A stretch of DNA of 34,173 bases from Candidatus Omnitrophota bacterium (GTDB lineage Bacteria > Omnitrophota > Gorgyraeia > Gygaellales > Profunditerraquicolaceae): assembly GCA_028710405.1 (NCBI GenBank), contig JAQTUD010000004.1, positions 1 to 34,173 on the forward strand. The letters are read 5' to 3'. Within the stretch, counting starts at the first letter, position 1; each line of letters opens with the position of its first letter. Position numbers and translations under genes: made by a program. This document shows positions 5,443-32,607 of the stretch, piece by piece. A model generated the notes under the pieces. It did not search any database and was not told where the DNA came from. It saw only the letters and a program-made list of their open reading frames with translations.

Positions 5443-5521
5443 TAAAGACAGCGGAAACACTTTCCTGCATATTCGTTTTAGCATCCCACGGAAAGCGTTT
5501 CCTCTAAGCTGGTTACGGAAA
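5443..5521. promoter_or_regulatory. Two 13-bp palindromes GGAAA-N3-TTTCC plus a half-site, upstream of the tsaC operon (candidate operator)
   Basis: ggaaacactttcc (5443-5455), ggaaagcgtttcc (5480-5492), cggaaac half-site (5515-5521). The same palindrome recurs at 16692-16727. Confidence 0.4.
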
Positions 5522-5535
5522 CAATTGAGTTGGTT

Positions 5536-6597
5536 ATGAGTACGACAAAGATTATTAAGATTGATCCGCTAAGCCCTAATCCGGAGGTCCTCCGGCTGGC
5601 AGCCGAGATTTTAGTTAAAGGCGGGTTGGTGATCATCCCTACTGAAACTGTCTATGGGGTAGCGGCGAATATGCAGGATAAAAAGGCGCTGGAGAGATTG
5701 TATGGAATAAAGCAGCGGCCTAAAGATAAACCTTTTTCTTTGCTTATAGACTGGAAACTGCGAATTGAAGAGTTCGCCATAAATATACCGGTGGCGGCTT
5801 ATAAACTGGTGGATAAATTCTGGCCCGGGCCGTTGACAGTGATACTAAAATCAAAAGATGGAGGTAAGGTGGGGCTGCGTATGCCGGATAATGAGGTTGC
5901 CCGCGGGATCATTCATCTGGCTGGGGTCCCCCTGGTTTGTCCGTCGGCGAATATCTCCGGTAAACCCGCTCCAACAGATTTCCAGCAGGCTATTCAAGGG
6001 CTGGAGGGGTTAGTGGATCTGGCTATAGACGCCGGCAACCCCAGGATACAAGTGGAGTCCACGGTCATAGACCTGACTACTGAACCGGTGCAAGTCTTAA
6101 GGGAGGGGGCGATTAAAAAAGAAGAGGTTGAGGCAGTGATTAATAAGAAGGTCGTGCTTTTTGTCTGCACGGGAAACTCCTGCCGCTCAGTAATAGCGGA
6201 AGCTTTACTAAAGAAGAAACTAAAAGAAAAGAACAGGAACGATGTGGAAGTCTTATCCGCCGGCACAATGTTAACCGGCGGCATGGGCGCTACTGAATCC
6301 ACGAAAGAAGTCCTGGCCAGGGAGGGGATAGATGTCTCCGGGCATCTCTCCCGGTCTATCAACGCGGGGATGATCAAGAAATCTGACCTTATCCTAGTAA
6401 TGGAGAAGGCGCATGAGAATAGGGTCCTGGAGATCGCCCCGGAAGTAAAAAATAGACTTTTCTTATTAAAGGAATTTGCTAAAATAAATGGGAATAACCT
6501 TGATATCGCCGATCCTATCGGCAAGCCTCTGGAATCTTACAGCCGGACCCTTGAGGTGATCAAAGAAGCAGTAGAGAAAGTGAGTGTACTGATATGA
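5536..6597 (+). CDS. tsaC: Fusion protein: L-threonylcarbamoyladenylate synthase (TsaC/YrdC/Sua5 domain) + low-molecular-weight protein phosphatase (Tyr/Arg, CX5R)
   Basis: N-terminal about 200 aa LAAEILVKGGLVIIPTETVYGVAANMQD...LRMPDNEVARGII is the YrdC fold. C-terminal about 150 aa VVLFVCTGNSCRSVIAEALL (CX5R P-loop) with a ...DIADPIG Asp-Pro general-acid motif is LMW-PTP. Start is ATG 5536 (a TTG at 5530 is also possible). Confidence 0.8.
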   Translation: MSTTKIIKIDPLSPNPEVLRLAAEILVKGGLVIIPTETVYGVAANMQDKKALERLYGIKQRPKDKPFSLLIDWKLRIEEFAINIPVAAYKLVDKFWPGPLTVILKSKDGGKVGLRMPDNEVARGIIHLAGVPLVCPSANISGKPAPTDFQQAIQGLEGLVDLAIDAGNPRIQVESTVIDLTTEPVQVLREGAIKKEEVEAVINKKVVLFVCTGNSCRSVIAEALLKKKLKEKNRNDVEVLSAGTMLTGGMGATESTKEVLAREGIDVSGHLSRSINAGMIKKSDLILVMEKAHENRVLEIAPEVKNRLFLLKEFAKINGNNLDIADPIGKPLESYSRTLEVIKEAVEKVSVLI

Positions 6598-16669: not shown

Positions 16670-16679
16670 GGGACACTGT

Positions 16680-16728
16680 CCCGATTGGATTGGAAACTGT
16701 TTCCCGATTGAAGCGGAAACAGTTTCCC
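16680..16728. promoter_or_regulatory. Tandem 23-bp direct repeat (2 units + partial), each junction forming the palindrome GGAAAC-N-GTTTCC (candidate operator/iteron-like sites)
   Basis: cccgattggattggaaactgttt / cccgattgaagcggaaacagttt / ccc. Palindromes at 16692-16704 and 16715-16727. Located 15-60 bp upstream of the -35 of the promoter at 16744. Confidence 0.45.
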
Positions 16729-16743
16729 AGGGTTTTGGCCTCT

Positions 16744-16771
16744 TGAAAAAAGCGGTAAAATATGTTATACT
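16744..16771 (+). promoter_or_regulatory. Sigma70-type promoter with extended -10
   Basis: -35 TTGAAA (16744-16749), 16-nt spacer, TGt-TATACT (TG 16763-16764, -10 16766-16771). Confidence 0.5.
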
Positions 16772-16777
16772 ATAGGT

Positions 16778-16947
16778 GTAAAAAGACACTTTGACAATTT
16801 GGTAAAAATGTCCTACTGAAAAAGGCAAACTAGCAGTAATGCTGGGGCGCAAAGCGACAGCCCCGACGTAAGTCGGGGGGCTGCGTTGCCAAAGAGGCTT
16901 GAAACCCTAAAGACTGCCTTTAGGGTTTATTTGTTTAGCCCTAAGTT
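16778..16947 (+). ncRNA. Candidate sRNA / structured leader of about 170 nt from promoter to first intrinsic terminator
   Basis: Transcript predicted from the promoter above. Contains an irregular hairpin of about 14 bp capped by GNRA tetraloop gtaa (16848-16891) and a 10-codon uORF (atg 16839..taa 16871). Ends at terminator 16913-16947. Confidence 0.35.
16913..16947 (+). terminator. Rho-independent terminator (11-bp stem + T-rich tail)
   Basis: aaaccctaaag-actgc-ctttagggttt followed by atttgttt. Confidence 0.6.
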
Positions 16948-17001
16948 TGCCTTAAGTTCAGAAAAAAGGTGAATTTAGGGCTTTTTTATTGGTAAAAACC
17001 A
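16947..17001 (+). terminator. Second tandem intrinsic terminator (stem agccctaa/ttagggct, long loop, T7 tail)
   Basis: agccctaa (16947-16954) ... ttagggct (16985-16992), then tttttta tt. Confidence 0.5.
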
Positions 17002-17048
17002 ACCCCACCAGCCACGGAAGGTGTTTTTAGAGAGGGGTCAGATGGTCC

Positions 17049-17072
17049 CGCCCTTTACAAAAGGGCGGGGCG
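17049..17072. promoter_or_regulatory. Perfect 9-bp inverted repeat CCCGCCCTT-tacaa-AAGGGCGGG immediately upstream of the RHH gene RBS (operator candidate or RNA hairpin)
   Basis: Seen directly. Followed by gcgcctGGAGGtgaatagatATG. Confidence 0.4.
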
Positions 17073-17089
17073 CCTGGAGGTGAATAGAT

Positions 17090-17353
17090 ATGAAAGAGAA
17101 GATAAATACCCACAGAGTAGTGACTTTTCTGACCCGGGAAGAATTAGATTTTTTGGATAAGCTGGAGAAGGATATGATGTTCTCCACGGGCAGGCATATC
17201 TCCCGTTCCCAGATCATCCAGGATATGGCCGGCCTGCTCACTGAGACCCAGATGGATGCATCAGGCGTAAAGGATGATACAGAATTACGCAGCAGGATAA
17301 TGCAGGCTATCGCTAAATTAGTCAAGGAAGAACAAGACAAAAACAGGGGGTAG
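17090..17353 (+). CDS. Ribbon-helix-helix (CopG/Arc/MetJ-like) DNA-binding protein
   Basis: HRVVTFLTREELDFLDKLEKDM...GRHISRSQIIQDMAGLL fits a beta-strand / helix A / G-x-S N-cap / helix B RHH pattern. GGAGG RBS. Confidence 0.65.
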   Translation: MKEKINTHRVVTFLTREELDFLDKLEKDMMFSTGRHISRSQIIQDMAGLLTETQMDASGVKDDTELRSRIMQAIAKLVKEEQDKNRG

Positions 17354-17357
17354 GCTG

Positions 17358-17549
17358 ATGAAAACCTACACTGAAGAAGCCAGGTTAAAGACATTAGCGT
17401 CTAAGGGGGGAGTAATGTATTTTCTGGTAGAGAAACCGGACCGGATCTACCGCGGAATGGTCTTATTATCCCCGGCGCACAACCATAACCGCAAGAGGAT
17501 CGTCTGTATGAAGGTATATAAGATAAATGAAGAAGGGAGGGCTAAATGA
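17358..17549 (+). CDS. Hypothetical 63-aa protein, translationally coupled downstream of the RHH gene
   Basis: AGGGGGTAGG RBS. ORF MKTYTEEARLKTLASKGGVMYFLVEKPDRIYRGMVLLSPAHNHNRKRIVCMKVYKINEEGRAK. No recognisable domain. Its stop overlaps the next ATG (ATGA). Confidence 0.45.
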   Translation: MKTYTEEARLKTLASKGGVMYFLVEKPDRIYRGMVLLSPAHNHNRKRIVCMKVYKINEEGRAK

Positions 17550-17656
17550 GGCGTTTTTCCCGTAGATCACACAAGAAGGCCAGAAAGAATGATAAAAAAC
17601 ACACCGGGTTCCTTGAGGCGCTCAGGCTTTATGCCGGTATGCCGGTGGAAGTATAA
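17546..17656 (+). CDS. Basic His/Arg/Lys-rich micropeptide (36 aa), paralog 1
   Basis: MRRFSRRSHKKARKNDKKHTGFLEALRLYAGMPVEV. GGGAGGG RBS 8 nt upstream. ATGA coupling to the upstream ORF. Confidence 0.4.
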   Translation: MRRFSRRSHKKARKNDKKHTGFLEALRLYAGMPVEV

Positions 17657-17671
17657 ACAGGAGGGATAAAA

Positions 17672-17770
17672 ATGAAGAGAACTCATCGCAGCGGGCACAA
17701 AAAACACAGGAGGCAGAAAAGACAATTTGGTATAATGGCCGCGTTAAAATGCATCTTCGGATGTCGGTAA
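17672..17770 (+). CDS. Basic His/Arg/Lys-rich micropeptide (32 aa), paralog 2
   Basis: MKRTHRSGHKKHRRQKRQFGIMAALKCIFGCR. GGAGGG RBS 7 nt upstream. Same frame as paralog 1, separated by TAA + 15 nt. Shares the M[RK]R..R[SR][SG]HKK[AH]R[KR] pattern. Confidence 0.4.
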   Translation: MKRTHRSGHKKHRRQKRQFGIMAALKCIFGCR

Positions 17771-17796
17771 ATCCCGGCACCCGTGGCGATGCCGCA

Positions 17797-17830
17797 AGGC
17801 CCGCTCTCGTTTGGGAGCGGGCCTTTTTAT
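17797..17830. terminator. Intrinsic terminator shared by the + strand micropeptide operon and the convergent helicase
   Basis: aggcccgctc-tcgtttgg-gagcgggcc followed by TTTTTATT on the + strand. The helicase stop codon lies inside the tail. Confidence 0.6.
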
Positions 17831-19707
17831 TATGCCTCGCGCAGCTGTTTCTCCGCGTCTATCACGTCGCGGTTAGTCACCCGGACAACCTCTTTTATTT
17901 TTTCTTTTAAGCCAGGCGAACATACCTTGGCATCCATGATCTCTCTTAAGATCTGTATCGCCATCCTGAAATAGCGCACTACTTCGCCCTCATCGGTATC
18001 AGTGAATTGTAATATCTTATCAAAGTTTGTCCCGCGCAGCCATCCTTCCATGCTTGAACTTAAATGAAAATACGGCTGTTTGCTAAAAGGATAAATCTTG
18101 TATTTCTGCTCCCGGTGTTTTATTAGTTCATATATCTCTTCGCAGGCATTTTTGACCTTATGGCCGGTCTTTGAGAGGCTGGTTACGCGTTGGTTCTTTC
18201 TGGGCTCAAAGACTGCCGCCGAGGCGATGATCCCTAAACCGAACTCATCTAATTGTTCCAGGATATTCTGGTCATAAAGTTCCGCCAGGATAAGCTCGTA
18301 ACCGTAGACATTCTTGGCGAATTGGCCTTTTTTGGTCAGGGCCCCTTTATCAATGTAACCCCATTCCTTAAGTAAATTTAATTTTGCCTCCATCAGCCTT
18401 AAGGCTTCTCTCTGGTGGTTTTTATGGGACTGGAAATAATGCAGCGATAGAGGATAGATTTTAAATAGCTCTTCTTTATGTTTTTCATAGAGGTTCAGGA
18501 TAGTAGCATAAGAAGTATTGAACTGGCTTCTGACCTGCTCGGCTCGGCCGTAAATAACGCGTTTTGCCTCGTCAAAATTTATGCGGTTTAAATTCAGGCG
18601 GCAGTAGACAAAACCTTCCTTGTCTATCCCCCGCCGTCCGGCGCGCCCGGCCATCTGGTAGAAATCCCGTGTTTTAAGATTACGCACATAGTGGCCGTAG
18701 AATTTGCGCAGTTCATCCAGGCATACCGAGCGGCTGGGCATATTTATCCCCAGGGCAAAGGTCTCGGTAGTGAATATGACTTTGAGCAGGCGGCTGGTAA
18801 ATAACCGTTCAATGACTTCTTTGAGGGTAGGAAGCATCCCGGCATGATGATAGGCAATACCCTGCTGTATGAGCGGATACATATTCTGCGCGCTGCGCTC
18901 GTGCTTTAAGTCAAAGCGTTCGCAGAGGGAGTTATACAGGTCGGTAATCTCGGCTCTTTCTTTGCCGTTAAGGAAATTAAAACTTTGTAATTCCTGGGCC
19001 AGGTCCTCGGCGCGCCTTCTCCCGAAGACAAAATAGATGCAAGGCAGGCCCTCCTTCTGGCGCAGGTAATTGATCAGCGTATTCATTTTATTCGGCCTGG
19101 CGAATTTGCCCCTTCTTACTTTGTCGATCTTGTCCACGATCTCATTTGAGCTCTGGAAGAAAAAGTGCAAGGGGACAGGGCGTTTCTCTTCAATTACCGT
19201 TTTTACCGGTTTATGGTGTATGGATTCTATCCAGGAGGCAAGTTCATTTATGTTGGGTATGGTTGCCGAGAGCGCCAGCAACTTCATATGTTTGGGAAGG
19301 AATATCAGGGATTCCTCCCAGACTGTCCCGCGCTCGGGATTGTCAATATAATGCACCTCGTCAAAGATGATCCAGGAGTACATCTGGAGGCTCTCCGGTT
19401 CATCCAGCACTTTATTACGGAAGATCTCGGTAGTCATGATCAATACTGGGGCCTGGGGGTTGATAGAGACATCCCCGGTCAATATACCGATGTTATCACC
19501 GAATTGCTGGTAGAAATCGCGGAATTTCTGGTTAGAGAGGGCTTTGATCGGGGCAGTGTAGATGACCCCCAGGTTATTCTGGATGGAGTTATTGATCACA
19601 TACTCGGCAATAGCGGTTTTTCCCGCTCCGGTGGGCGCCGAGACGATTACCGAACAGCCCTGGTTTATATAATCAATAGATTCCTCCTGGAAGCGGTCAT
19701 ATATCAT
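17830..19707 (-). CDS. SF2 DEVH-box helicase, Ski2/Hel308-like
   Basis: Motif I SAPTGAGKT, motif II DEVH, motif VI QMAGRAGRRG. 625 aa. Only minus-strand gene in the window. Confidence 0.8.
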   Translation of the reverse strand: MIYDRFQEESIDYINQGCSVIVSAPTGAGKTAIAEYVINNSIQNNLGVIYTAPIKALSNQKFRDFYQQFGDNIGILTGDVSINPQAPVLIMTTEIFRNKVLDEPESLQMYSWIIFDEVHYIDNPERGTVWEESLIFLPKHMKLLALSATIPNINELASWIESIHHKPVKTVIEEKRPVPLHFFFQSSNEIVDKIDKVRRGKFARPNKMNTLINYLRQKEGLPCIYFVFGRRRAEDLAQELQSFNFLNGKERAEITDLYNSLCERFDLKHERSAQNMYPLIQQGIAYHHAGMLPTLKEVIERLFTSRLLKVIFTTETFALGINMPSRSVCLDELRKFYGHYVRNLKTRDFYQMAGRAGRRGIDKEGFVYCRLNLNRINFDEAKRVIYGRAEQVRSQFNTSYATILNLYEKHKEELFKIYPLSLHYFQSHKNHQREALRLMEAKLNLLKEWGYIDKGALTKKGQFAKNVYGYELILAELYDQNILEQLDEFGLGIIASAAVFEPRKNQRVTSLSKTGHKVKNACEEIYELIKHREQKYKIYPFSKQPYFHLSSSMEGWLRGTNFDKILQFTDTDEGEVVRYFRMAIQILREIMDAKVCSPGLKEKIKEVVRVTNRDVIDAEKQLREA

Positions 19708-27013: not shown

Positions 27014-28285
27014 ATGTTTATTGTATATGACATAATATTTTTGATCATAGCGATATTTTTTCTGCCGGTGTATTTATTCCGCGGGAAATTCCACGGCGGA
27101 TTCTGGGCGCGGCTGGGATTCTTCTCCAAAGACCTGAAATTAGATAAACCCATCTGGGTGCACGCGGTGAGCGTGGGAGAGGCGATGGCCGCCAAGGAAT
27201 TAATCGCGGGGTTAAGAAAGGCCTATCCGGCAAAGAGGCTGGTTATCTCTACGGTTACGCCTACGGGGAATAAAATCGCCCGCGGCCTTGCCACCGAAAC
27301 AGACCTAGTGACTTATCTGCCCTTAGATTTCAGCTTTAGCGTGCGCACTGCCATAAAAAGAATAGACCCTTCTTTATTTATCATAGTTGAGACCGAACTC
27401 TGGCCGAATCTAATTAGTTATCTGCATAAGAAAAAAATCCCCGTAGTCATTGTCAACGGCAGGCTCTCCGATGATTCCTTCAGGGGTTATTCAGCGATAA
27501 AGTTCTTGTTAAAATCCGTGCTCAAAAAAGTGAGCCTTTTTTGCGTGCAGAGCGAGAATGATAAGCGTAAGTTAATCTCGCTGGGCGTAAGCCAGGAGGA
27601 TATTCAGGTTACCGGGAATATGAAGTTTGACGCCACCGGCCTTAAGATCGAGGCGAACACTCTTATCCAGTGCCGCCGGAATTTAGCGCTGGAGGAGACG
27701 GATAAGCTTTGGGTCTGCGGCTCAACACACCCCGGAGAAGAAAAGATGCTTCTTGAGGCCTATAAAAATTTACTCAAAAGTTACCCCGCGCTTAAGTTAC
27801 TGATCGCCCCGCGGCATCCGGAGCGCGCGCAGGAAGTGGCGGATTTAATAAAGCGTTTTAATTTTGAACCCGTAAGGTTAAGCCTGCTGAACTTAAGAAC
27901 TGAAGAACTAAAGAACTTAAGAGCTGTGTTTATCCTGGACACCGTCGGCCAGATGATGGATTACTACGCCCTGGCGGATATTGTTTTTGTCGGCGGCACT
28001 TTAGTTAAAAAGGGCGGGCATAATATTTTAGAGCCGGCCTCCCTGGGTAAAGCCATTCTCTTTGGGCCGTATATGTTCAATTTCCGGGATATCGCGGAGC
28101 TATTTTTAGCACGCCAGGCCGCGATTCTGGTGTATAATACCACGGAGTTAGAAAAAAAGATAAGCCAGCTCTTAGATGCTCCTTCCGGCGCGCTGGTATT
28201 AGCTCAGAGGGCAAGGGATACTATTACCTTGGGCTCCGGGGCTACGACAAGGAACCTGGAACTGATAAAGAGGTACGCGCGTTGA
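27014..28285 (+). CDS. waaA: 3-deoxy-D-manno-octulosonic acid (KDO) transferase
   Basis: N-terminal TM, ...IWVHAVSVGEAMAAKELI... and glycosyltransferase region typical of KdtA/WaaA. Confidence 0.85.
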   Translation: MFIVYDIIFLIIAIFFLPVYLFRGKFHGGFWARLGFFSKDLKLDKPIWVHAVSVGEAMAAKELIAGLRKAYPAKRLVISTVTPTGNKIARGLATETDLVTYLPLDFSFSVRTAIKRIDPSLFIIVETELWPNLISYLHKKKIPVVIVNGRLSDDSFRGYSAIKFLLKSVLKKVSLFCVQSENDKRKLISLGVSQEDIQVTGNMKFDATGLKIEANTLIQCRRNLALEETDKLWVCGSTHPGEEKMLLEAYKNLLKSYPALKLLIAPRHPERAQEVADLIKRFNFEPVRLSLLNLRTEELKNLRAVFILDTVGQMMDYYALADIVFVGGTLVKKGGHNILEPASLGKAILFGPYMFNFRDIAELFLARQAAILVYNTTELEKKISQLLDAPSGALVLAQRARDTITLGSGATTRNLELIKRYAR

Positions 28286-29487
28286 GCACGCCAAAGATCA
28301 AACGGATACTGATCATTTCTTCGGATAAAAGCCTGATCGACGTTTTGACTTTTTGTTTTGACGGATGGGGTTATGAGGTCTTTCTGCAGCATAATATGGC
28401 CCCGGACATAGATGTGATAAAGAGGGTATCTCCGGACGTGATCGTGGTGGATATTGACGCCGCGCACAAATCTGAAATCGGTATCTGCCGGACGCTAAAA
28501 GACGATTTTATGACCGCTTTCGTGCCGGTAATCGCGATCATCAATAAACGCCAGCTAAGGCAGCAGCTTCTGGATATCAGGCAGGGAGTGGATGATTACC
28601 TGATCAAGCCGCCTGACCCGCTGGACCTGCGCACCAGGGTCGAGATGGCGATCAAGAGGTCGCAGTATAGCATTTACACCAGCCCGCTTACCGGCCTGCC
28701 CGGCGGCAGGATCATTGAGGAGACCATTAAGGATAAGATAAAAGAAGGATTCCCGTTGTCGTTCGCACATCTTGATATAGACAATTTTAAATATTTCAAT
28801 GATGCCTACGGATACCTCAGGGGCGACAGGGTGATCATGCAGACTGCCTACCTGCTCTATGCCACCATTAAGAGGTTCGGTAATAACAGGGATTTTATCG
28901 GCCATATCGGCGGAGACGACTTTATGTTCATCAGCACCCCGGAAAAATGCGCGCAGATCTGCCATAATTTTATCCAACTCTTTGAGAAGGTGACTCCTTT
29001 TCATTATTCGTCCAAAGAGAGGGAGTGTGGTTTTATCGTAGCCAAGGACAGGGCGCGTAAGATAAAAGAGATCCCGCTGATGAGTATTTCTATAGCAATA
29101 GTGAATAAATCCGGGCCGCAGCATTTTAAGAACGCGGTGGAGATAAACGAGAAGATGGCGGAGATAAAATGTTATCTCAAGAGTATGCCGGGGAGTAAAT
29201 TTATGGCCGACCGCCGCAGCGCCACACCTGAATATGCGCAGGGCCCGCAATTCCGGCCCAAAGGAGAAAAGACAATCAGTTTATACAAGCCCCTGGGGCA
29301 GATCTTGATAGAGAGAAGCCTGGTTACTCCGGAGCAGCTTGATGAGGCACTCAAGACCCACTGGAAGAGGGGGGTTCAGCTGGGGGAGATCCTTAAGGAA
29401 TTGAAGCTTATCAGAGACATAGACCTACAGGAGGCATTAAAGGCGCAAGGGTCAATACCGCTTGCGCGTATTCAGGAGCAGCGATGA
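28282..29487 (+). CDS. Response-regulator receiver + degenerate GGDEF (GGDDF) + C-terminal MshEN-like tandem motif (putative c-di-GMP signalling/receptor protein); TTG start
   Basis: REC: RILIISSDKSL...DVIVVDID...VPVIAII. GGDEF-domain core with HIGGDDF. C-terminal PLGQILIERSLVTPEQLDEALKTH + QLGEILKELKLIRDIDLQEALKAQ resemble the 24-aa MshEN/T2SSE_N c-di-GMP-binding repeats. Confidence 0.7.
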   Translation: MSTPKIKRILIISSDKSLIDVLTFCFDGWGYEVFLQHNMAPDIDVIKRVSPDVIVVDIDAAHKSEIGICRTLKDDFMTAFVPVIAIINKRQLRQQLLDIRQGVDDYLIKPPDPLDLRTRVEMAIKRSQYSIYTSPLTGLPGGRIIEETIKDKIKEGFPLSFAHLDIDNFKYFNDAYGYLRGDRVIMQTAYLLYATIKRFGNNRDFIGHIGGDDFMFISTPEKCAQICHNFIQLFEKVTPFHYSSKERECGFIVAKDRARKIKEIPLMSISIAIVNKSGPQHFKNAVEINEKMAEIKCYLKSMPGSKFMADRRSATPEYAQGPQFRPKGEKTISLYKPLGQILIERSLVTPEQLDEALKTHWKRGVQLGEILKELKLIRDIDLQEALKAQGSIPLARIQEQR

Positions 29488-30902
29488 GAAAGATGCGTTT
29501 TATCTTTAGCAGTTTCTGTGTCAAGGTCATCATAACGCTTATTCTTTCTATATTTTTTGTTATGGCTTTAAGCAGCCTGCTTGTCTATAAATTTGCCCTG
29601 GATTCTCAATTCCATCAATTAAGGGAGAGGTTGAAGATAATCGCCTCTACCGCCGCGTTGATGGTGGATGCCGAGTCGCTTAAACAGGTCCCCTTGAACG
29701 CCGAGGGGATAAACAGCCCGGCTTATCTGGCTGTGGCCGCTAAGTTAAAAAAGATCAAAGAAGTAAATCCCACCCTGAAATATATTTATACCATGGCCAG
29801 GACCGATGATCCGCGTTTCCTACAATTCGTGGTTGACCCGGACCCCATGGTCAATGTCCGCGGCAAAACAACAGTTACTTCTTACCCTGGTGACAGGTAT
29901 GATACCATCTCTTGTCCGGATATAATTCAGGCCTTTGATGGGCCGGCCGCGGATAAGAAATTGGTAATTGACGATTGGGGGGTTTTTCTCTCCGGGTATG
30001 CCCCGGTTCATGATAAATCCGGCAGGGCGCAATACATCCTGGGCGTGGATATGGCAGCCCAAGATATCTATGCCTTGCAGGGGCAGGTAAGCCGCCGGGT
30101 GATGCTGGTGTTAGGCATCGGTTTTCTAATGTCGGTTCTTTTTGGGCTTTTTATTTCTTTCGGGATCACCAGCCGGATCAGGAAGCTGGTAGAGGGGACG
30201 CGGCGCATTGCTGCCGAAGACCTGGAATATAAAGTAGAAGTAAAGGGGCACGATGAGATCAGCGAATTAGCCAGCTCTTTTAACCTTATGGCCACCAGCC
30301 TTTCTGAATCCAAGGGCAGGCTGCAGGATTATTTCTACCGGGTAGTGCAGTCCCTGGTGCGCATCCTGGAAGCAAAGGATGCTTACACCAAGGGGCATTC
30401 GGATAGGGTTGCCAATTACGCCCAGGCGATCGCCCTGAATATGGGGTTTGCCCAGAACAAGGTAGAGCTTGTGAGAAAGGCCGCGCAGCTGCACGATATA
30501 GGAAAGTTGGCGGTCCATGAAGGCATCCTGAACAAAAAGGAGGCCCTTACCGAGGAGGAATGGAGAATTATCAAAGAGCATCCCATAATCGGGGAAGAGG
30601 TATTAAAGCCGGTCCTGCTGGATGAGGAGATGTTGTCTATGGTCAGGTCGCATCATGAGCGTTACGACGGGGGCGGATATCCCGACAAGATAAAAGGCGA
30701 CGCGATAAATATTTTTGCCCAGATAATTTCCGTGGCTGACGCTTATGACGCCATGACCTCTCCGCGCGCATACCGAGAAGCCAGGGATAAAGAAAAAGCC
30801 ATAACGGAATTAAAAAATAATAGTGGCAGCCAGTTTAATACCCAGGTAGTAAAGGCATTCCTTAAAGTATTGGCCCAGCAAGAAAAGGAGGCAGGGAAAT
30901 GA
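29484..30902 (+). CDS. Membrane sensor HD-GYP phosphodiesterase (periplasmic sensor-TM-HAMP-HD-GYP)
   Basis: Two TMs flanking an approximately 170-aa periplasmic domain, HAMP-like linker, HD...LHDIGK...HHERYDGGGYPD HD-GYP motifs. Confidence 0.8.
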   Translation: MRKMRFIFSSFCVKVIITLILSIFFVMALSSLLVYKFALDSQFHQLRERLKIIASTAALMVDAESLKQVPLNAEGINSPAYLAVAAKLKKIKEVNPTLKYIYTMARTDDPRFLQFVVDPDPMVNVRGKTTVTSYPGDRYDTISCPDIIQAFDGPAADKKLVIDDWGVFLSGYAPVHDKSGRAQYILGVDMAAQDIYALQGQVSRRVMLVLGIGFLMSVLFGLFISFGITSRIRKLVEGTRRIAAEDLEYKVEVKGHDEISELASSFNLMATSLSESKGRLQDYFYRVVQSLVRILEAKDAYTKGHSDRVANYAQAIALNMGFAQNKVELVRKAAQLHDIGKLAVHEGILNKKEALTEEEWRIIKEHPIIGEEVLKPVLLDEEMLSMVRSHHERYDGGGYPDKIKGDAINIFAQIISVADAYDAMTSPRAYREARDKEKAITELKNNSGSQFNTQVVKAFLKVLAQQEKEAGK

Positions 30903-31864
30903 AAGCCGTAGAGATAACCGCCAAGGACCTCAGGCCGGAAGATTTCATTAAAGAAAAAGTAAAAGATATTTCTCAGGCGGTTGGTCAAGGCCTGGCGATC
31001 AACGCGCTCTCCGGAGGAGTGGATTCCTCCGCGGTCACTATGCTGGGGCACAAGGCCCTGGGGGATAGGTTAAAGACCTATTTCATCAATAACGGCATTA
31101 TGCGCCAGGGGGAGCCGGAAGAGATAGTTTCTATATTCAAGAGATTAGGCGTGCCCGTGGAAGTCATCGACGCCCAGGATAATTTTTTCTCGGCCTTAAA
31201 AGGGGTTACTGACCCGGAGAAGAAGAGGGAGGCGATCACCCAGACTTTCTACAAAGATGTATTTGCTGAGCTGGTGAAAAAGAGCGGCGCCAAATATCTG
31301 CTCCAGGGCACGATCCTTACTGATGTGGATGAAACAGTCGCCGGGATAAAAAGACAACACAATGTCTTTATGCAATTAGGCATAGACCCGCAGGCAGCTT
31401 TCGGATATAAAATTATTGAGCCACTGGTTGAGTTGCGTAAGGATGGAGTAAGAAAAGTCGCTGCGGCCTTAGGGATGCCGGAGAAGATATATAACCGTAT
31501 GCCTTTTCCCGGCCCGGCTTTAGCTGCCAGGGTCATCGGGGAGGCTACTCCGGAGAGGATAAAGGTGGCCAGGCTCGCCACCATGATCGTGGAAGAAGAG
31601 TTATCCGCAAGCCGGGCCTTTCAGTACATGGCAATTTTACATCAGGATAGGGTCACCGGCATGCGGGATGGTAAAAGGGACTTTGGTCTGCAGATTGAAA
31701 TCCGCTCCTGGGATAGCACTGACGCCCGGAAAGCCCAGCCGACCAGATTACCATATGAAATCTTAGATAAACTGGCCAGCCGGATAGTCGGGGAGGTCCC
31801 GGGAGTAGTAAGCGTTACTTATAATATTACCCAGAAGCCGCCTTCTACTATAGAGGCGGTTTAA
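30899..31864 (+). CDS. guaA: Stand-alone GMP synthase ATP-pyrophosphatase (PP-loop) subunit, GuaA C-terminal-domain homologue
   Basis: PP-loop SGGVDSS, ...QGTILTDVDE..., dimerisation domain MPFPGPALAARVIGE. No glutamine amidotransferase domain in this ORF. Confidence 0.7.
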   Translation: MKAVEITAKDLRPEDFIKEKVKDISQAVGQGLAINALSGGVDSSAVTMLGHKALGDRLKTYFINNGIMRQGEPEEIVSIFKRLGVPVEVIDAQDNFFSALKGVTDPEKKREAITQTFYKDVFAELVKKSGAKYLLQGTILTDVDETVAGIKRQHNVFMQLGIDPQAAFGYKIIEPLVELRKDGVRKVAAALGMPEKIYNRMPFPGPALAARVIGEATPERIKVARLATMIVEEELSASRAFQYMAILHQDRVTGMRDGKRDFGLQIEIRSWDSTDARKAQPTRLPYEILDKLASRIVGEVPGVVSVTYNITQKPPSTIEAV

Positions 31865-31881
31865 CTTCAGATAGGATAAAG

Positions 31882-32607
31882 ATGCCATTAGAGATAAGAG
31901 TAGGGCAGAAGAATAATATCATCAAGTTGGACCTGGCCGGCCGCATTGATATAGACTCCGCAAACCTCATTGAGGTCATCGGACAATGCCTGCACGACGG
32001 ATACACCGATATACTCTGTAATTTTGAAGAAGTGGAGTTTATTGATTATATGGGTGTTTCGCTGATCGTGGTTGCCTACAAAGAGATCGCCAATAACCGC
32101 GGGAGGATGAAATTCCTGAATATCCCGACGCATCTTAGGGGGATATTCTCTATCTGCGGGTTGGATAAGATCATTGAAATATACGCCGAAGAGGACGCGG
32201 CGGTAAATAGTTTTAGCGAGGATAAGGCGATAGAGAATATCAAGAAGATGCAGTTACGGCGCCGCTTTAAGCGCCTGCCTATTGATATCAAGGTGGAGTT
32301 GAAAGCTGTTCAGCAGAATAGCCCGGCTTGTTATAAGGTAGATATACTGGATTTAAGCGGAGTAGGCGCGTATATATTCGGCTGTGATAAATTCAAGCTG
32401 GGTGATGATGTGGTGATAAGGCTGAAGCTTTCCCCCAAACAGGAGCAGATAGACCTGGAGGCCAGGGTAGTCTGGCTCTCCGACAAACAGGTGCAGCATC
32501 AGATCCACCCCGGGATGGGAGTGGAATTCCGTAATATTCCCACCACCCTGCAGCAGAAACTCGTGGAATTCATTGAAAGAAACCTCTCTTTTACCTCTAC
32601 GGAATAA
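31882..32607 (+). CDS. STAS (anti-sigma-factor antagonist-like) - PilZ fusion protein
   Basis: N-terminal STAS (IKLDLAGRIDIDSAN...EVEFIDYMGVSLIV...). C-terminal PilZ with RRRFKR (RxxxR) and DLSGVGAYI (DxSxxG). Confidence 0.7.
   Translation: MPLEIRVGQKNNIIKLDLAGRIDIDSANLIEVIGQCLHDGYTDILCNFEEVEFIDYMGVSLIVVAYKEIANNRGRMKFLNIPTHLRGIFSICGLDKIIEIYAEEDAAVNSFSEDKAIENIKKMQLRRRFKRLPIDIKVELKAVQQNSPACYKVDILDLSGVGAYIFGCDKFKLGDDVVIRLKLSPKQEQIDLEARVVWLSDKQVQHQIHPGMGVEFRNIPTTLQQKLVEFIERNLSFTSTE

What the first reader, a model, noticed from the sequence alone, without database searches (positions are those of the whole stretch)
16670..17830. Compact small-gene locus: tandem palindromic repeats, promoter, sRNA-like unit with two terminators, then an RHH / 63-aa / two-micropeptide operon
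In 1.2 kb between a housekeeping macro-NUDIX gene and a convergent helicase there are five stacked elements. (a) Two 23-bp tandem repeats carrying GGAAAC-N-GTTTCC palindromes. (b) A sigma70 promoter with extended -10. (c) An approximately 170-nt untranslated segment with a GNRA-capped hairpin and two consecutive intrinsic terminators. (d) A perfect 9-bp inverted repeat just before the RBS. (e) Four translationally coupled small genes: an RHH DNA-binding protein, an unannotatable 63-aa protein and two paralogous micropeptides. None of it resembles a known toxin-antitoxin, CRISPR or phage module that I can name. The density of regulatory structure around proteins with no known family makes this the best candidate for an undescribed system in the window, possibly an RHH-regulated small-protein module or an attenuator-controlled operon.
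Basis: partly seen in the sequence, partly recalled or inferred. Interest (0 to 1): 0.78.

Follow-up and report, generated by a model that had tools for sequence, protein, structure and literature searches.

The report
c-di-GMP riboswitch controlling small-protein operon
The "sRNA-like unit" is a c-di-GMP class I riboswitch with two terminators, and it controls a four-gene small-protein operon whose first gene belongs to an unannotated, probably ribbon-helix-helix family that sits behind this riboswitch almost everywhere it occurs in Omnitrophota and is elsewhere fused to c-di-GMP-binding PilZ domains.

Summary
Window 16814-16893 is a canonical c-di-GMP-I (GEMM-I) riboswitch aptamer (Rfam RF01051, 73.3 bits, gathering score 35). 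It is followed by two intrinsic terminators and a four-gene operon of 87, 63, 36 and 32 aa. The window is a Candidatus Omnitrophota MAG contig.

Terminator regions are enriched for complementarity to the aptamer's ligand-binding cores. I infer from this that c-di-GMP promotes termination (OFF switch). This is not shown.

The GGAAAC-N-GTTTCC repeats are specific to this genome and are not part of the conserved unit.

Verdict: a known riboswitch class wired to an undescribed c-di-GMP output module. Moderately interesting, not categorically new.

The parts
16670..16727 (.). Three tandem 13-nt palindromes about 22-23 bp apart: GGGACAcTGTCCC at 16670, GGAAACtGTTTCC at 16692 and GGAAACaGTTTCC at 16715. 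They lie upstream of the -35. This is a lineage-specific insertion, a probable operator for an unknown transcription factor, and not part of the conserved unit.
   Evidence: Absent from all 35 related loci held at that point and from the syntenic intergenic regions of L031, L035 and L004. Two 1-mismatch copies occur at 5453 and 5490.
16743..16771 (+). Sigma-70-type promoter: TTGAAA, 17-nt spacer, TG-extended TATACT. The transcription start is predicted near 16778.
   Evidence: 10 of 12 positions, TG present. The same -35 / 17 nt / TGTTATACT is conserved in L031, L035 and L004.
16788..16804 (+). Conserved 5' leader segment ACTTTGACAATTTGGTA between the start site and the aptamer. Part of it (GACA, 16793-16796) forms one arm of a small 5' stem-loop predicted in some folds, pairing with UGUC at 16809-16812. 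Role unknown.
   Evidence: Identical in WIN, L031, L035 and L004. Hairpin in two of the MFE folds.
16814..16893 (+). c-di-GMP-I (GEMM-I) riboswitch aptamer. A probable P1 extends to about 16810-16898. The positions I map to the ligand contacts are G16824 (G20), A16851 (A47) and C16889 (C92).
   Evidence: RF01051 at 73.3 bits against a gathering score of 35, E 9.4e-13, full-length match. In a 23-sequence alignment these positions are invariant, and 15 of 20 predicted pairs show compensatory changes. The identity of the Vc2 contact residues is from PMC4744006. The mapping onto this sequence is my inference.
16902..16936 (+). Terminator T1: an 11-bp stem AAACCCUAAAG/CUUUAGGGUUU with a 5-nt loop and an interrupted U tract AUUUGUUU. 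The loop and 3' arm contain UGCCUUU, complementary to aptamer AAAGGCA.
   Evidence: I4. A first terminator sits a median 33.5 nt after the aptamer end in 96 leaders.
16937..16991 (+). Terminator T2: a 17-position stem with a 12-nt loop and UUUUUUAUU. Its 5' arm (16944-16953, AGUUUGCCUU) is a perfect 10-nt complement of the aptamer core AAGGCAAACU (16822-16831), making it a candidate antiterminator pairing.
   Evidence: I1, I5. Two terminators after the aptamer recur by eye in about 19 of 28 leaders.
17002..17038 (+). Clade-specific conserved leader element: a stem ACCCC/GGGGU enclosing the invariant motif CCAGCCACGG (17008-17017). Function unknown.
   Evidence: The motif is present at the same relative position in WIN, L002, L003, L007, L009, L010, L011, L012, L026, L031, L034 and L035. 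L034 shows a compensatory CCCU/AGGG change. The motif is found in 20 of 109 leaders.
17047..17069 (+). GC-rich 10-bp inverted repeat or hairpin (CCCGCCCUUU-ACA-AAAGGGCGGG) just upstream of the Shine-Dalgarno sequence. The CCGCC...GGCGG core is conserved. It could be an RNA hairpin or a DNA operator.
   Evidence: I6. A CCGCC-N-GGCGG repeat lies within 110 nt of the start codon in 14 of 109 leaders, against 0.7% of background windows.
17090..17353 (+). 87-aa protein, the founding and constant gene of the unit. It belongs to an unannotated family, is probably a ribbon-helix-helix output domain, and is preceded by the SD GGAGGUG at 17076-17082.
17358..17549 (+). 63-aa protein with a predicted fold of one helix and three beta strands. 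It is a conserved family restricted to the closer clade. Function unknown.
   Evidence: 62 homologues, no Pfam. Alignments A2 and A3. AF2 pLDDT 87.6. No Foldseek hit with E below 0.1.
17546..17656 (+). 36-aa micropeptide, type A: a basic N-terminus followed by FLEALRLYAGMPVEV. Its start overlaps the stop of the 63-aa gene (ATGA).
   Evidence: The family is found in 25 of 116 loci with the conserved C-terminal motif FL.A.RLY.GMPV. In some loci it lies upstream of the 87-aa homologue.
17672..17770 (+). 32-aa micropeptide, type B paralogue: a basic N-terminus followed by ...ALKCIFGCR. Its SD is AGGAGGG.
   Evidence: Conserved in L034 (MKRTHRNGHKKQRRQKKQFGIIDALKCIFGCR) and in L031/L032/L033 (...FLDVLRCIFGCR).
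17796..17831 (+). Strong intrinsic terminator ending the operon (13 pairs, 9 of them G-C, then a T run). It abuts the stop of the convergent helicase gene.

Best explanation
This locus is a c-di-GMP-controlled operon of a Candidatus Omnitrophota bacterium. A sigma-70 promoter at 16743-16771 starts a roughly 310-nt leader. The leader holds a canonical class I c-di-GMP riboswitch aptamer (16814-16893), two intrinsic terminators (T1 at 16902-16936, T2 at 16937-16991) and a further conserved leader element ending in a GC-rich hairpin next to the ribosome-binding site.

The riboswitch decides whether RNA polymerase reads through into four translationally linked small genes. The first and evolutionarily constant gene encodes an 87-aa protein of an unannotated family. 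That family is most likely a ribbon-helix-helix-type output (DNA-binding) domain of c-di-GMP signalling. Standalone copies get their c-di-GMP input from the riboswitch. Other family members get it from a fused PilZ domain, or get phosphorylation input from a fused receiver domain.

The 63-aa protein and the two arginine/lysine-rich micropeptides are clade-specific accessory partners of unknown role.

Inferred direction: ligand-free aptamer cores (AAGGCAAAC and CGCAAAGC) pair with complementary stretches in the terminators and act as antiterminators. Bound c-di-GMP locks the cores so that T1 and T2 form. High c-di-GMP would therefore switch the operon OFF.

Shown: aptamer identity, terminators, gene conservation, the riboswitch-gene association and the domain fusions. 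Inferred: ligand binding, the OFF direction, the RHH fold and DNA binding.
For: Aptamer:
- RF01051 at 73.3 bits against a gathering score of 35, full length.
- The positions I map to the ligand contacts are invariant, and 15 of 20 pairs show compensatory changes across 23 related leaders.

c-di-GMP metabolism in the same window: REC-GGDEF, a HAMP plus HD-GYP-type HD_5 protein, and STAS-PilZ at 28282-32607.

Association of the riboswitch with the 87-aa family:
- Of 30 genome loci from Omnitrophota-type MAGs, 25 have a clan CL00126 aptamer above the curated threshold, upstream on the same strand.
- Two more are just below threshold and carry long hairpin insertions. One is masked by N but its 5' start is visible. 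Two have no upstream DNA.
- In metagenome loci, 68 of 80 have the aptamer. Only 6 of 74 testable loci lack it.

Terminators and coupling:
- Every one of 96 leaders has at least one terminator-like hairpin between the aptamer and the gene. The first U tract starts a median 33.5 nt after the aptamer end.
- There is a perfect 10-nt complementarity between 16822-16831 and 16944-16953.
- TTTGC occurs in 20 of 28 terminator regions, against 10.6 +/- 2.5 in shuffles.
- Core-to-downstream duplex energy averages -11.4 against -8.9 kcal/mol for shuffles. Mean z is -1.61 and 50% of 76 leaders have z below -1.64. The reversed-core control gives 3%.

Protein family:
- 231 representatives.
- 25 of 35 long members carry a C-terminal PilZ with RxxxR and D/NxSxxG motifs, and 2 carry an N-terminal REC.
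- Some RHH-PilZ fusions also sit behind the riboswitch: L025, L037, L093, L096, L099, L100, L108 and L109.
- In other clades the gene is followed by a HAMP-GAF-GGDEF cyclase or by TIGR04073 exosortase-associated secreted proteins. Both fit c-di-GMP biology. Negative feedback on a cyclase fits an OFF switch.
Against: - No RHH HMM in Pfam or NCBIfam matches any of 41 family members. hhalign against NikR-N and CopG is not significant. Foldseek finds nothing.
- Thermodynamic folding shows the aptamer, T1 and T2 all forming together. Any switching must therefore be kinetic, and the OFF direction rests only on complementarity statistics from phylogenetically related sequences.
- In the one studied dual-terminator c-di-GMP-I riboswitch, Bc1, c-di-GMP unfolds T1 and the riboswitch barely responds in vivo (PMC11218506).
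- Six family loci have no riboswitch.
- No transcript or ligand-binding data exist for this organism.
Confidence: 0.8

Rival explanations
1. Same riboswitch-controlled operon, but an ON switch. c-di-GMP binding stabilises P1 or the aptamer and prevents terminator formation, so the small proteins are made at high c-di-GMP.
For: Several characterised GEMM-I riboswitches are ON switches. In Bc1, which also has two terminators, c-di-GMP unfolds T1 (PMC11218506). The P1 3' strand (to about 16898) lies only about 4 nt from the T1 5' arm, and an AGGC/GUUU extension of T1 overlaps it in one predicted fold. Downstream partners such as TIGR04073 exosortase-associated proteins would intuitively be biofilm, high-c-di-GMP functions.
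Against: The complementarity that links the terminators to the aptamer involves the ligand-binding cores. Ligand binding can only make these less available, which favours terminator formation. T2 lies about 45 nt beyond the aptamer and has no overlap with P1. A GGDEF cyclase inside the regulated operon in L013 and L015 fits negative feedback better.
Confidence: 0.3
2. The aptamer plus T1/T2 is mainly a stand-alone terminated small RNA, acting as a c-di-GMP sponge or a trans-acting riboswitch RNA. The operon would then be driven by its own promoter in the 16990-17050 region, which holds the conserved CCAGCCACGG element.
For: The aptamer and both terminators fold together in the MFE structure with no competing structure. 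A conserved sequence-level motif of unknown function follows T2 in many leaders. Terminated riboswitch transcripts acting in trans are known for other classes (my own knowledge).
Against: No promoter-like site was found on the + strand between T2 and the start codon. The aptamer is always on the same strand, 70-450 nt upstream of the gene, across very divergent clades, including leaders as short as 26-90 nt after the aptamer where there is no room for a second promoter. The terminator-core complementarity implies cis switching.
Confidence: 0.1
3. A type II toxin-antitoxin or defence module, with the RHH protein as antitoxin and the 63-aa protein or a micropeptide as toxin.
Against: There are no Pfam, NCBIfam or PADLOC hits for any of the four proteins. 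In most clades the 87-aa gene occurs without the 63-aa gene or micropeptides and pairs instead with a diguanylate cyclase, TIGR04073 proteins or a fused PilZ. The locus keeps a conserved chromosomal synteny rather than a mobile context.
Confidence: 0.03

Closest known systems
c-di-GMP-I (GEMM-I) riboswitch, Rfam RF01051 (for example Vc2, Cd1)
   Same: Full-length covariance-model match at twice the gathering score. It has the GNRA-capped first hairpin and a second hairpin with covariation. The G/A/C at the positions I map to the ligand contacts are conserved. It lies in a 5' UTR and is followed by an intrinsic-terminator expression platform.
   Different: The downstream gene family is not among the described GEMM-I targets as far as I could find. 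Many relatives score best against the variant models RF03167 and RF03168 although their contact positions are canonical. Ligand binding has not been tested.
Bc1 c-di-GMP-I riboswitch of the Bacillus cereus group (dual-terminator expression platform; PMC11218506)
   Same: One aptamer is followed by two rho-independent terminators in a long expression platform. The authors call this architecture 'rarely seen'. Here it recurs in most Omnitrophota leaders.
   Different: The phylum and downstream genes are unrelated. In Bc1 c-di-GMP unfolds T1, whereas here the complementarity pattern suggests that the ligand promotes termination. Homology between the two expression platforms was not tested.
CdbA/CdbB of Myxococcus xanthus (RHH nucleoid-associated c-di-GMP receptors; PMC7156744)
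   Same: A small (67-86 aa) ribbon-helix-helix protein wired into c-di-GMP signalling.
   Different: CdbA binds c-di-GMP directly and is reported only in Myxococcales. A profile of the 87-aa family finds no PDB sequence, CdbA included. Here the c-di-GMP input comes from an RNA aptamer or a fused PilZ domain.
PilZ-domain c-di-GMP receptors with output domains (for example YcgR and MrkH-type regulators)
   Same: Long family members carry a canonical PilZ domain, with RxxxR and D/NxSxxG motifs, fused to the same N-terminal domain.
   Different: The window protein has no PilZ domain. I did not find an RHH-like-N-terminus-plus-PilZ architecture described in the searched literature.
CopG/Arc/MetJ/NikR/ParD ribbon-helix-helix superfamily
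   Different: No RHH HMM matches. The loop between the helices is longer and there is an extra C-terminal helix.

Membership tests
c-di-GMP-I riboswitch (RF01051, clan CL00126) | Covariance-model score at or above the curated gathering threshold, over the full model | tested here: met
   73.3 bits against 35, model positions 1-87 of 87, E 9.4e-13.
c-di-GMP-I riboswitch (RF01051, clan CL00126) | Ligand-contacting nucleotides equivalent to Vc2 G20, A47 and C92 | tested here: met
   G16824, A16851 and C16889 are present and invariant in all 23 aligned related aptamers. The residue identities come from PMC4744006. The positional mapping is my inference from the Rfam consensus.
c-di-GMP-I riboswitch (RF01051, clan CL00126) | Two-hairpin architecture with a GNRA tetraloop, supported by covariation | tested here: met
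   The tetraloop is GUAA. 15 of 20 predicted pairs show compensatory changes.
c-di-GMP-I riboswitch (RF01051, clan CL00126) | Cis position in a 5' UTR with an expression platform | tested here: met
   A promoter lies upstream and T1 and T2 lie downstream. The aptamer is upstream on the same strand in 27 of 27 testable genome loci and 68 of 74 testable metagenome loci.
c-di-GMP-I riboswitch (RF01051, clan CL00126) | Specific, high-affinity binding of c-di-GMP and ligand-dependent gene control | not testable with these tools
   This needs in-line probing or ITC and transcription assays. Supporting context: GGDEF, HD-GYP-type and PilZ genes are in the same window.
Ribbon-helix-helix (RHH) superfamily | Match to an RHH sequence profile (Pfam RHH_1 and related families) | tested here: not met
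   No RHH family matches any of 41 members even at E up to 10. hhalign against NikR-N and CopG gives a probability below 1%. A PDB profile search found nothing.
Ribbon-helix-helix (RHH) superfamily | Strand-helix-helix fold similar to solved RHH domains | tested here: inconclusive
Ribbon-helix-helix (RHH) superfamily | Dimer with an intermolecular beta-sheet that binds repeated DNA operators | not testable with these tools
   Multimer prediction and EMSA are not available. The candidate operator is the conserved CCGCC...GGCGG inverted repeat at 17047-17069.
Type II toxin-antitoxin module | Recognisable toxin partner and a strictly co-inherited gene pair | tested here: not met
   There is no Pfam, NCBIfam or PADLOC hit. 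The 87-aa gene occurs with other partners or alone in most clades.
PilZ c-di-GMP receptor | PilZ domain with RxxxR and D/NxSxxG motifs | tested here: not met
   The window's 87-aa protein has no PilZ domain. By contrast, 25 of 35 long family members do.
CdbA-type RHH c-di-GMP receptor | Sequence homology to CdbA/CdbB | tested here: not met
   The family profile finds no PDB chain, although the paper reports crystal structures of CdbA.

The most novel reading that the evidence does not exclude
The four small proteins may form a new c-di-GMP-gated effector module. The RHH-type protein would bind the conserved CCGCC...GGCGG element in its own leader. The arginine-rich micropeptides would act like lambda-N/Tat-type arginine-rich motifs on the leader RNA hairpins (or on the 63-aa protein) to tune termination or translation. 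That would be a protein layer on top of a dual-terminator riboswitch, in a phylum of ultra-small, possibly host-dependent bacteria. It would also define a new c-di-GMP output domain family that occurs standalone, fused to PilZ and fused to REC.
Probability: 0.12. Interest if true: 0.8.

Novelty: new variant of a known kind. Interest (0 to 1): 0.5.

Why it matters

The comparative result is still useful. It names an unannotated protein family (231 cluster representatives, no Pfam or NCBIfam model) as the main riboswitch-controlled gene in Omnitrophota-type genomes. The same domain is fused to PilZ or receiver domains, which marks it as a c-di-GMP signalling output. That gives a concrete, testable candidate for how c-di-GMP reaches gene expression in a poorly understood, uncultivated phylum.

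It also supplies about 100 natural examples of the rare dual-terminator expression platform, and a conserved family of 32-41-aa basic micropeptides that most gene callers miss.

Tried and rejected
- Pfam, NCBIfam and PADLOC scans of the four proteins and of whole family alignments gave no meaningful hits.
- A PDB sequence-profile search with the 87-aa family found nothing.
- The 2017 paper on riboswitch variants, which defines c-di-GMP-I-GGC and -UAU, could not be retrieved. What those variant names mean here rests on my alignment. All related aptamers carry canonical G/A/C at the contact positions, so the Rfam variant labels probably reflect overall lineage similarity rather than altered binding sites.
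- My first complementarity test was confounded by A-run/U-tract matches. I replaced it with the TTTGC count and the duplex-energy test with a reversed-core control.
- A locus search with the very diverse alignment A5 failed. A6 worked.
- I considered a sigma-54 or ECF promoter, or an anti-Shine-Dalgarno role, for the CCAGCCACGG motif by eye. None fitted consistently, so it stays unexplained.
- I considered HicA-like or RelE-like toxin folds for the 63-aa protein. Neither Pfam nor Foldseek supports them.
- tRNA scan of the window: none found.
Full report
OBSERVATION

- The 23-nt direct repeats at 16679-16724 carry two perfect 13-nt palindromes, GGAAACTGTTTCC and GGAAACAGTTTCC. A third palindrome, GGGACACTGTCCC, directly precedes them.
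- A TG-extended sigma-70-type promoter, TTGAAA-17-TATACT, lies at 16743-16771.
- The untranslated segment contains a GUAA-capped hairpin and two terminator hairpins. T1 is 16902-16928. T2 is 16937-16982, followed by UUUUUUAUU.
- The inverted repeat before the ribosome-binding site is 10 bp: 17047-17056 pairs with 17060-17069.
- Four + strand ORFs of 87, 63, 36 and 32 aa follow, each with a Shine-Dalgarno sequence. They are separated by a 4-nt gap, an ATGA overlap and a 15-nt gap.
- A strong terminator at 17796-17825 closes the unit.
- The flanks are a Macro+NUDIX gene and a convergent DEAD/DSHCT helicase.

WHAT THE RNA SEGMENT IS

An Rfam scan of the whole window returns one hit. It is the c-di-GMP-I riboswitch aptamer (RF01051) at 16814-16893 on the + strand. 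The score is 73.3 bits against a gathering score of 35, with E 9.4e-13 over the full model. So the 'GNRA-capped hairpin' is the first hairpin of a GEMM-I aptamer.

The residues that contact c-di-GMP in Vc2 are G20, A47 and C92 (PMC4744006). By my mapping onto the Rfam consensus they correspond to G16824, A16851 and C16889.

The window is a Candidatus Omnitrophica MAG contig. The 87-aa protein is 100% identical to NCBI entry PHG40_00965, which sits on a 34,173-nt contig.

The same window encodes the enzymes and a receptor of c-di-GMP signalling:
- a REC-GGDEF protein at 28282-29487
- a HAMP plus HD_5 (HD-GYP-type) protein at 29484-30902
- a STAS-PilZ protein at 31882-32607

THE PROTEINS

None of the four proteins matches Pfam, NCBIfam or PADLOC.

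The 87-aa protein has 107 homologues in the 90%-clustered database, nearly all labelled Omnitrophota. Its N-terminal half is almost invariant: THRVVTFLTREELEFLDKLEKDMMFSTG.H.SRSQILQD.

The 63-aa protein first gave only 6 homologues. Genomic context and a profile search raised this to 62, with the motif KGG.MFFTIERP.RLYKG.I.LSPV....QRRAVYI.EY.

Both micropeptides are conserved as ORFs in the 94%- and 74%-identical relatives. Peptides of this family have a basic N-terminus and then FL.A.RLY.GMPV or ...CIFGCR. They occur in 25 of the 116 loci examined, sometimes upstream rather than downstream of the 87-aa homologue.

THE CONSERVED CORE IS RIBOSWITCH PLUS 87-AA GENE

I fetched 30 loci encoding relatives from species-representative genomes.
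- 25 have a c-di-GMP-I-clan aptamer above the curated threshold, upstream on the same strand.
- L020 scores 34.9 bits against 35. L010 scores 30.8 bits. Both have 60-66-nt insertions in the first hairpin.
- L004 has a masked N run exactly where the aptamer should be, and its 5' start UACUGAUAAA is visible.
- Two loci have no upstream DNA.

I then built a covariance model from 23 of these aptamers. It found an aptamer upstream on the + strand in 68 of 80 further metagenome loci. Of the 12 without a hit, five have fewer than 130 nt upstream and one is visibly truncated inside the leader. Six genuinely lack the aptamer and mostly sit inside other operons.

In the 23-sequence alignment the three contact positions are invariant, and 15 of 20 predicted pairs show compensatory changes. 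Several relatives score best against the variant models RF03167 and RF03168. Since their contact positions are canonical, I read this as lineage similarity, not altered specificity.

What follows the 87-aa gene varies by clade:
- The 63-aa gene and micropeptides follow in the closer clade.
- A HAMP-GAF-GGDEF diguanylate cyclase overlaps the gene in L013 and L015.
- TIGR04073 exosortase-system-associated secreted proteins follow in about ten loci.
- Small secreted proteins follow in others.

DOMAIN FUSIONS

A profile search of 1.84 billion cluster representatives found 231 family members with E up to 0.001. Of the best 150, 34 are 148 aa or longer. I scanned those 34 together with the long L025 protein, 35 in all. 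Of these, 25 carry a C-terminal PilZ domain with the RxxxR and D/NxSxxG motifs, and two carry an N-terminal receiver domain with the family domain at the C-terminus.

The domain therefore behaves as a signalling output module. Its input is c-di-GMP through PilZ, phosphorylation through REC, or, for the standalone form in this window, c-di-GMP through the riboswitch. Several RHH-PilZ fusions also sit behind a riboswitch: L025, L037, L093, L096, L099, L100, L108 and L109.

IS IT RIBBON-HELIX-HELIX?

The sequence pattern fits strand-helix-helix, but the statistical evidence is thin.
- No RHH HMM matches.
- hhalign against NikR-N and CopG is not significant.
- A PDB profile search is empty.
- The AF2 monomer has pLDDT 70.9, helices at 16-33, 39-53 and 63-85, and an unstructured N-terminus. 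An unstructured N-terminus is expected for a strand that forms only in the dimer.
- Foldseek finds nothing.

I take RHH as probable, not established.

The 63-aa protein gives a confident model (pLDDT 87.6) of one helix and three strands. It has no informative structural neighbour.

EXPRESSION PLATFORM

Every one of 96 leaders has at least one terminator-like hairpin between the aptamer and the gene. The first U tract starts a median 33.5 nt after the aptamer end. By eye, about 19 of 28 leaders have two consecutive terminators, as in the window. A dual terminator in a single expression platform has been described for the Bacillus Bc1 c-di-GMP-I riboswitch, where the authors call it rare (PMC11218506).

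Thermodynamic folding of 16778-17000 forms the aptamer, T1 and T2 simultaneously. There is no equilibrium exclusivity, so any switching must be kinetic.

The terminators are nonetheless linked to the aptamer.
- The T2 5' arm (16944-16953) is a perfect 10-nt complement of the aptamer core at 16822-16831.
- The T1 loop and 3' arm contain UGCCUUU.
- Across loci, TTTGC (the complement of the GCAAA found in both cores) occurs in 20 of 28 terminator regions, against 10.6 +/- 2.5 in dinucleotide shuffles.
- The duplex energy between each aptamer's own cores and its downstream 110 nt averages -11.4 kcal/mol against -8.9 for shuffles. Half of 76 distinct leaders have z below -1.64. A reversed-core control gives 3%.

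Ligand binding can only sequester these cores. The simplest reading is that free cores act as antiterminators and c-di-GMP promotes termination, which makes this an OFF switch. A cyclase inside the regulated operon in L013 and L015 would then give negative feedback. This direction is an inference, which I put at about 0.6. The sequences are also phylogenetically related, which inflates such statistics.

OTHER LEADER ELEMENTS

Downstream of T2 lies a clade-specific conserved element. It is a stem ACCCC/GGGGU around an invariant CCAGCCACGG at 17008-17017. The motif is present in 20 of 109 leaders. I could not assign it a role.

It may be an RNA hairpin next to the Shine-Dalgarno sequence or a DNA operator.

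THE PALINDROMIC REPEATS ARE NOT PART OF THE UNIT

In the syntenic relatives L031 and L032 (74% identity) the gene order is the same: AsmA-like, DUF6268, aspartyl protease, Macro-NUDIX, leader, operon, helicase, SNase. L035 and L004 share the upstream Macro-NUDIX-type gene (L004 by eye). In these relatives the conserved promoter abuts the stop codon of the Macro-NUDIX gene and there are no GGAAAC-N-GTTTCC sites. None of the 35 loci held at that point contained the pattern.

Two 1-mismatch copies lie at 5453 and 5490, upstream of a Sua5/YrdC-LMWPc gene. The repeats therefore look like operators of an unidentified factor specific to this lineage.

COMPARISON AND NOVELTY

The RNA is a new member of a known riboswitch class. 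Literature searches for Omnitrophota or Omnitrophica with riboswitch returned only versions of the unrelated ComFB study. A search for PilZ with ribbon-helix-helix returned CdbA and AmrZ work, but no RHH-PilZ architecture.

The nearest functional analogue is CdbA, an RHH protein that binds c-di-GMP directly. It is reported only in Myxococcales and shows no detectable sequence similarity to this family.

A toxin-antitoxin reading fails on partner variability and on the lack of any toxin match.

Overall this is a known regulatory principle, a c-di-GMP riboswitch with a terminator platform, applied to an undescribed output-domain family with accessory micropeptides. It is worth a note to people working on c-di-GMP or small proteins. 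It is not a new kind of system.

Noticed in passing
window 5453-5465 and 5490-5502: Two 1-mismatch copies of the GGAAAC-N-GTTTCC palindrome (GGAAACACTTTCC and GGAAAGCGTTTCC) lie 37 bp apart in the intergenic region upstream of a Sua5/YrdC-LMWPc fusion gene (5530-6597). This suggests a small regulon for an unidentified transcription factor, shared with the repeats at 16692 and 16715.
   Followed up: partly
window 28282-32607: A cluster of c-di-GMP signalling genes: REC-GGDEF (28282-29487), HAMP plus HD_5/HD-GYP-type (29484-30902), a PP-loop/GMP-synthase-C-like protein (30899-31864) and STAS-PilZ (31882-32607).
   Followed up: partly
window 17002-17038; L002, L003, L007, L009-L012, L026, L031, L034, L035 leaders: The invariant motif CCAGCCACGG(A/U)A(A/G)G, inside an ACCCC/GGGGU stem downstream of the terminators. 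It is conserved in sequence across a clade and tolerates an inserted hairpin in L035. No function was found. Promoter and anti-SD ideas did not fit consistently.
   Followed up: partly
L004 2890-2988; L009 2612-2621: In the genome collection the aptamer region of two relatives is replaced wholly or partly by runs of N. Their riboswitches could therefore only be inferred from the visible 5' start, or were scored as a partial sequence.
   Followed up: yes
L013 3275-4708 (L015 similar); L023 2058-2525, L028 3256-3747 and about eight others: In distant clades the 87-aa homologue is followed by a HAMP-GAF-GGDEF diguanylate cyclase that overlaps it, or by a TIGR04073 exosortase-system-associated secreted protein.
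   Followed up: yes
L088 1262-1414; L092 1684-1783: A second GEMM-I aptamer lies downstream of the 87-aa homologue in two metagenome loci. This suggests tandem riboswitch-controlled units side by side.
   Followed up: no
L043, L046, L047, L050, L051, L075, L102: In these loci the basic micropeptide gene lies between the riboswitch terminators and the 87-aa homologue. Gene order inside the regulated unit is therefore flexible, while the partnership is kept.
   Followed up: partly
L011 808-859: An nhaA-I RNA (RF03057) hit at 47.8 bits against a gathering score of 37, about 1.7 kb upstream of the c-di-GMP riboswitch in one relative.
   Followed up: no
L001, L002, L003, L007, L016-L019, L024, L026-L028, L031 (RF03167); L011, L029 (RF03168): Many related aptamers score best against the Rfam variant models c-di-GMP-I-GGC and c-di-GMP-I-UAU. 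Where aligned, they carry the canonical G/A/C at the three positions I map to the ligand contacts. The variant models may therefore capture lineage features as well as binding-site changes.
   Followed up: partly
L004 3585-4316: An AbiEii-type nucleotidyltransferase toxin gene follows the micropeptide genes in one relative, where the window has the convergent helicase.
   Followed up: no
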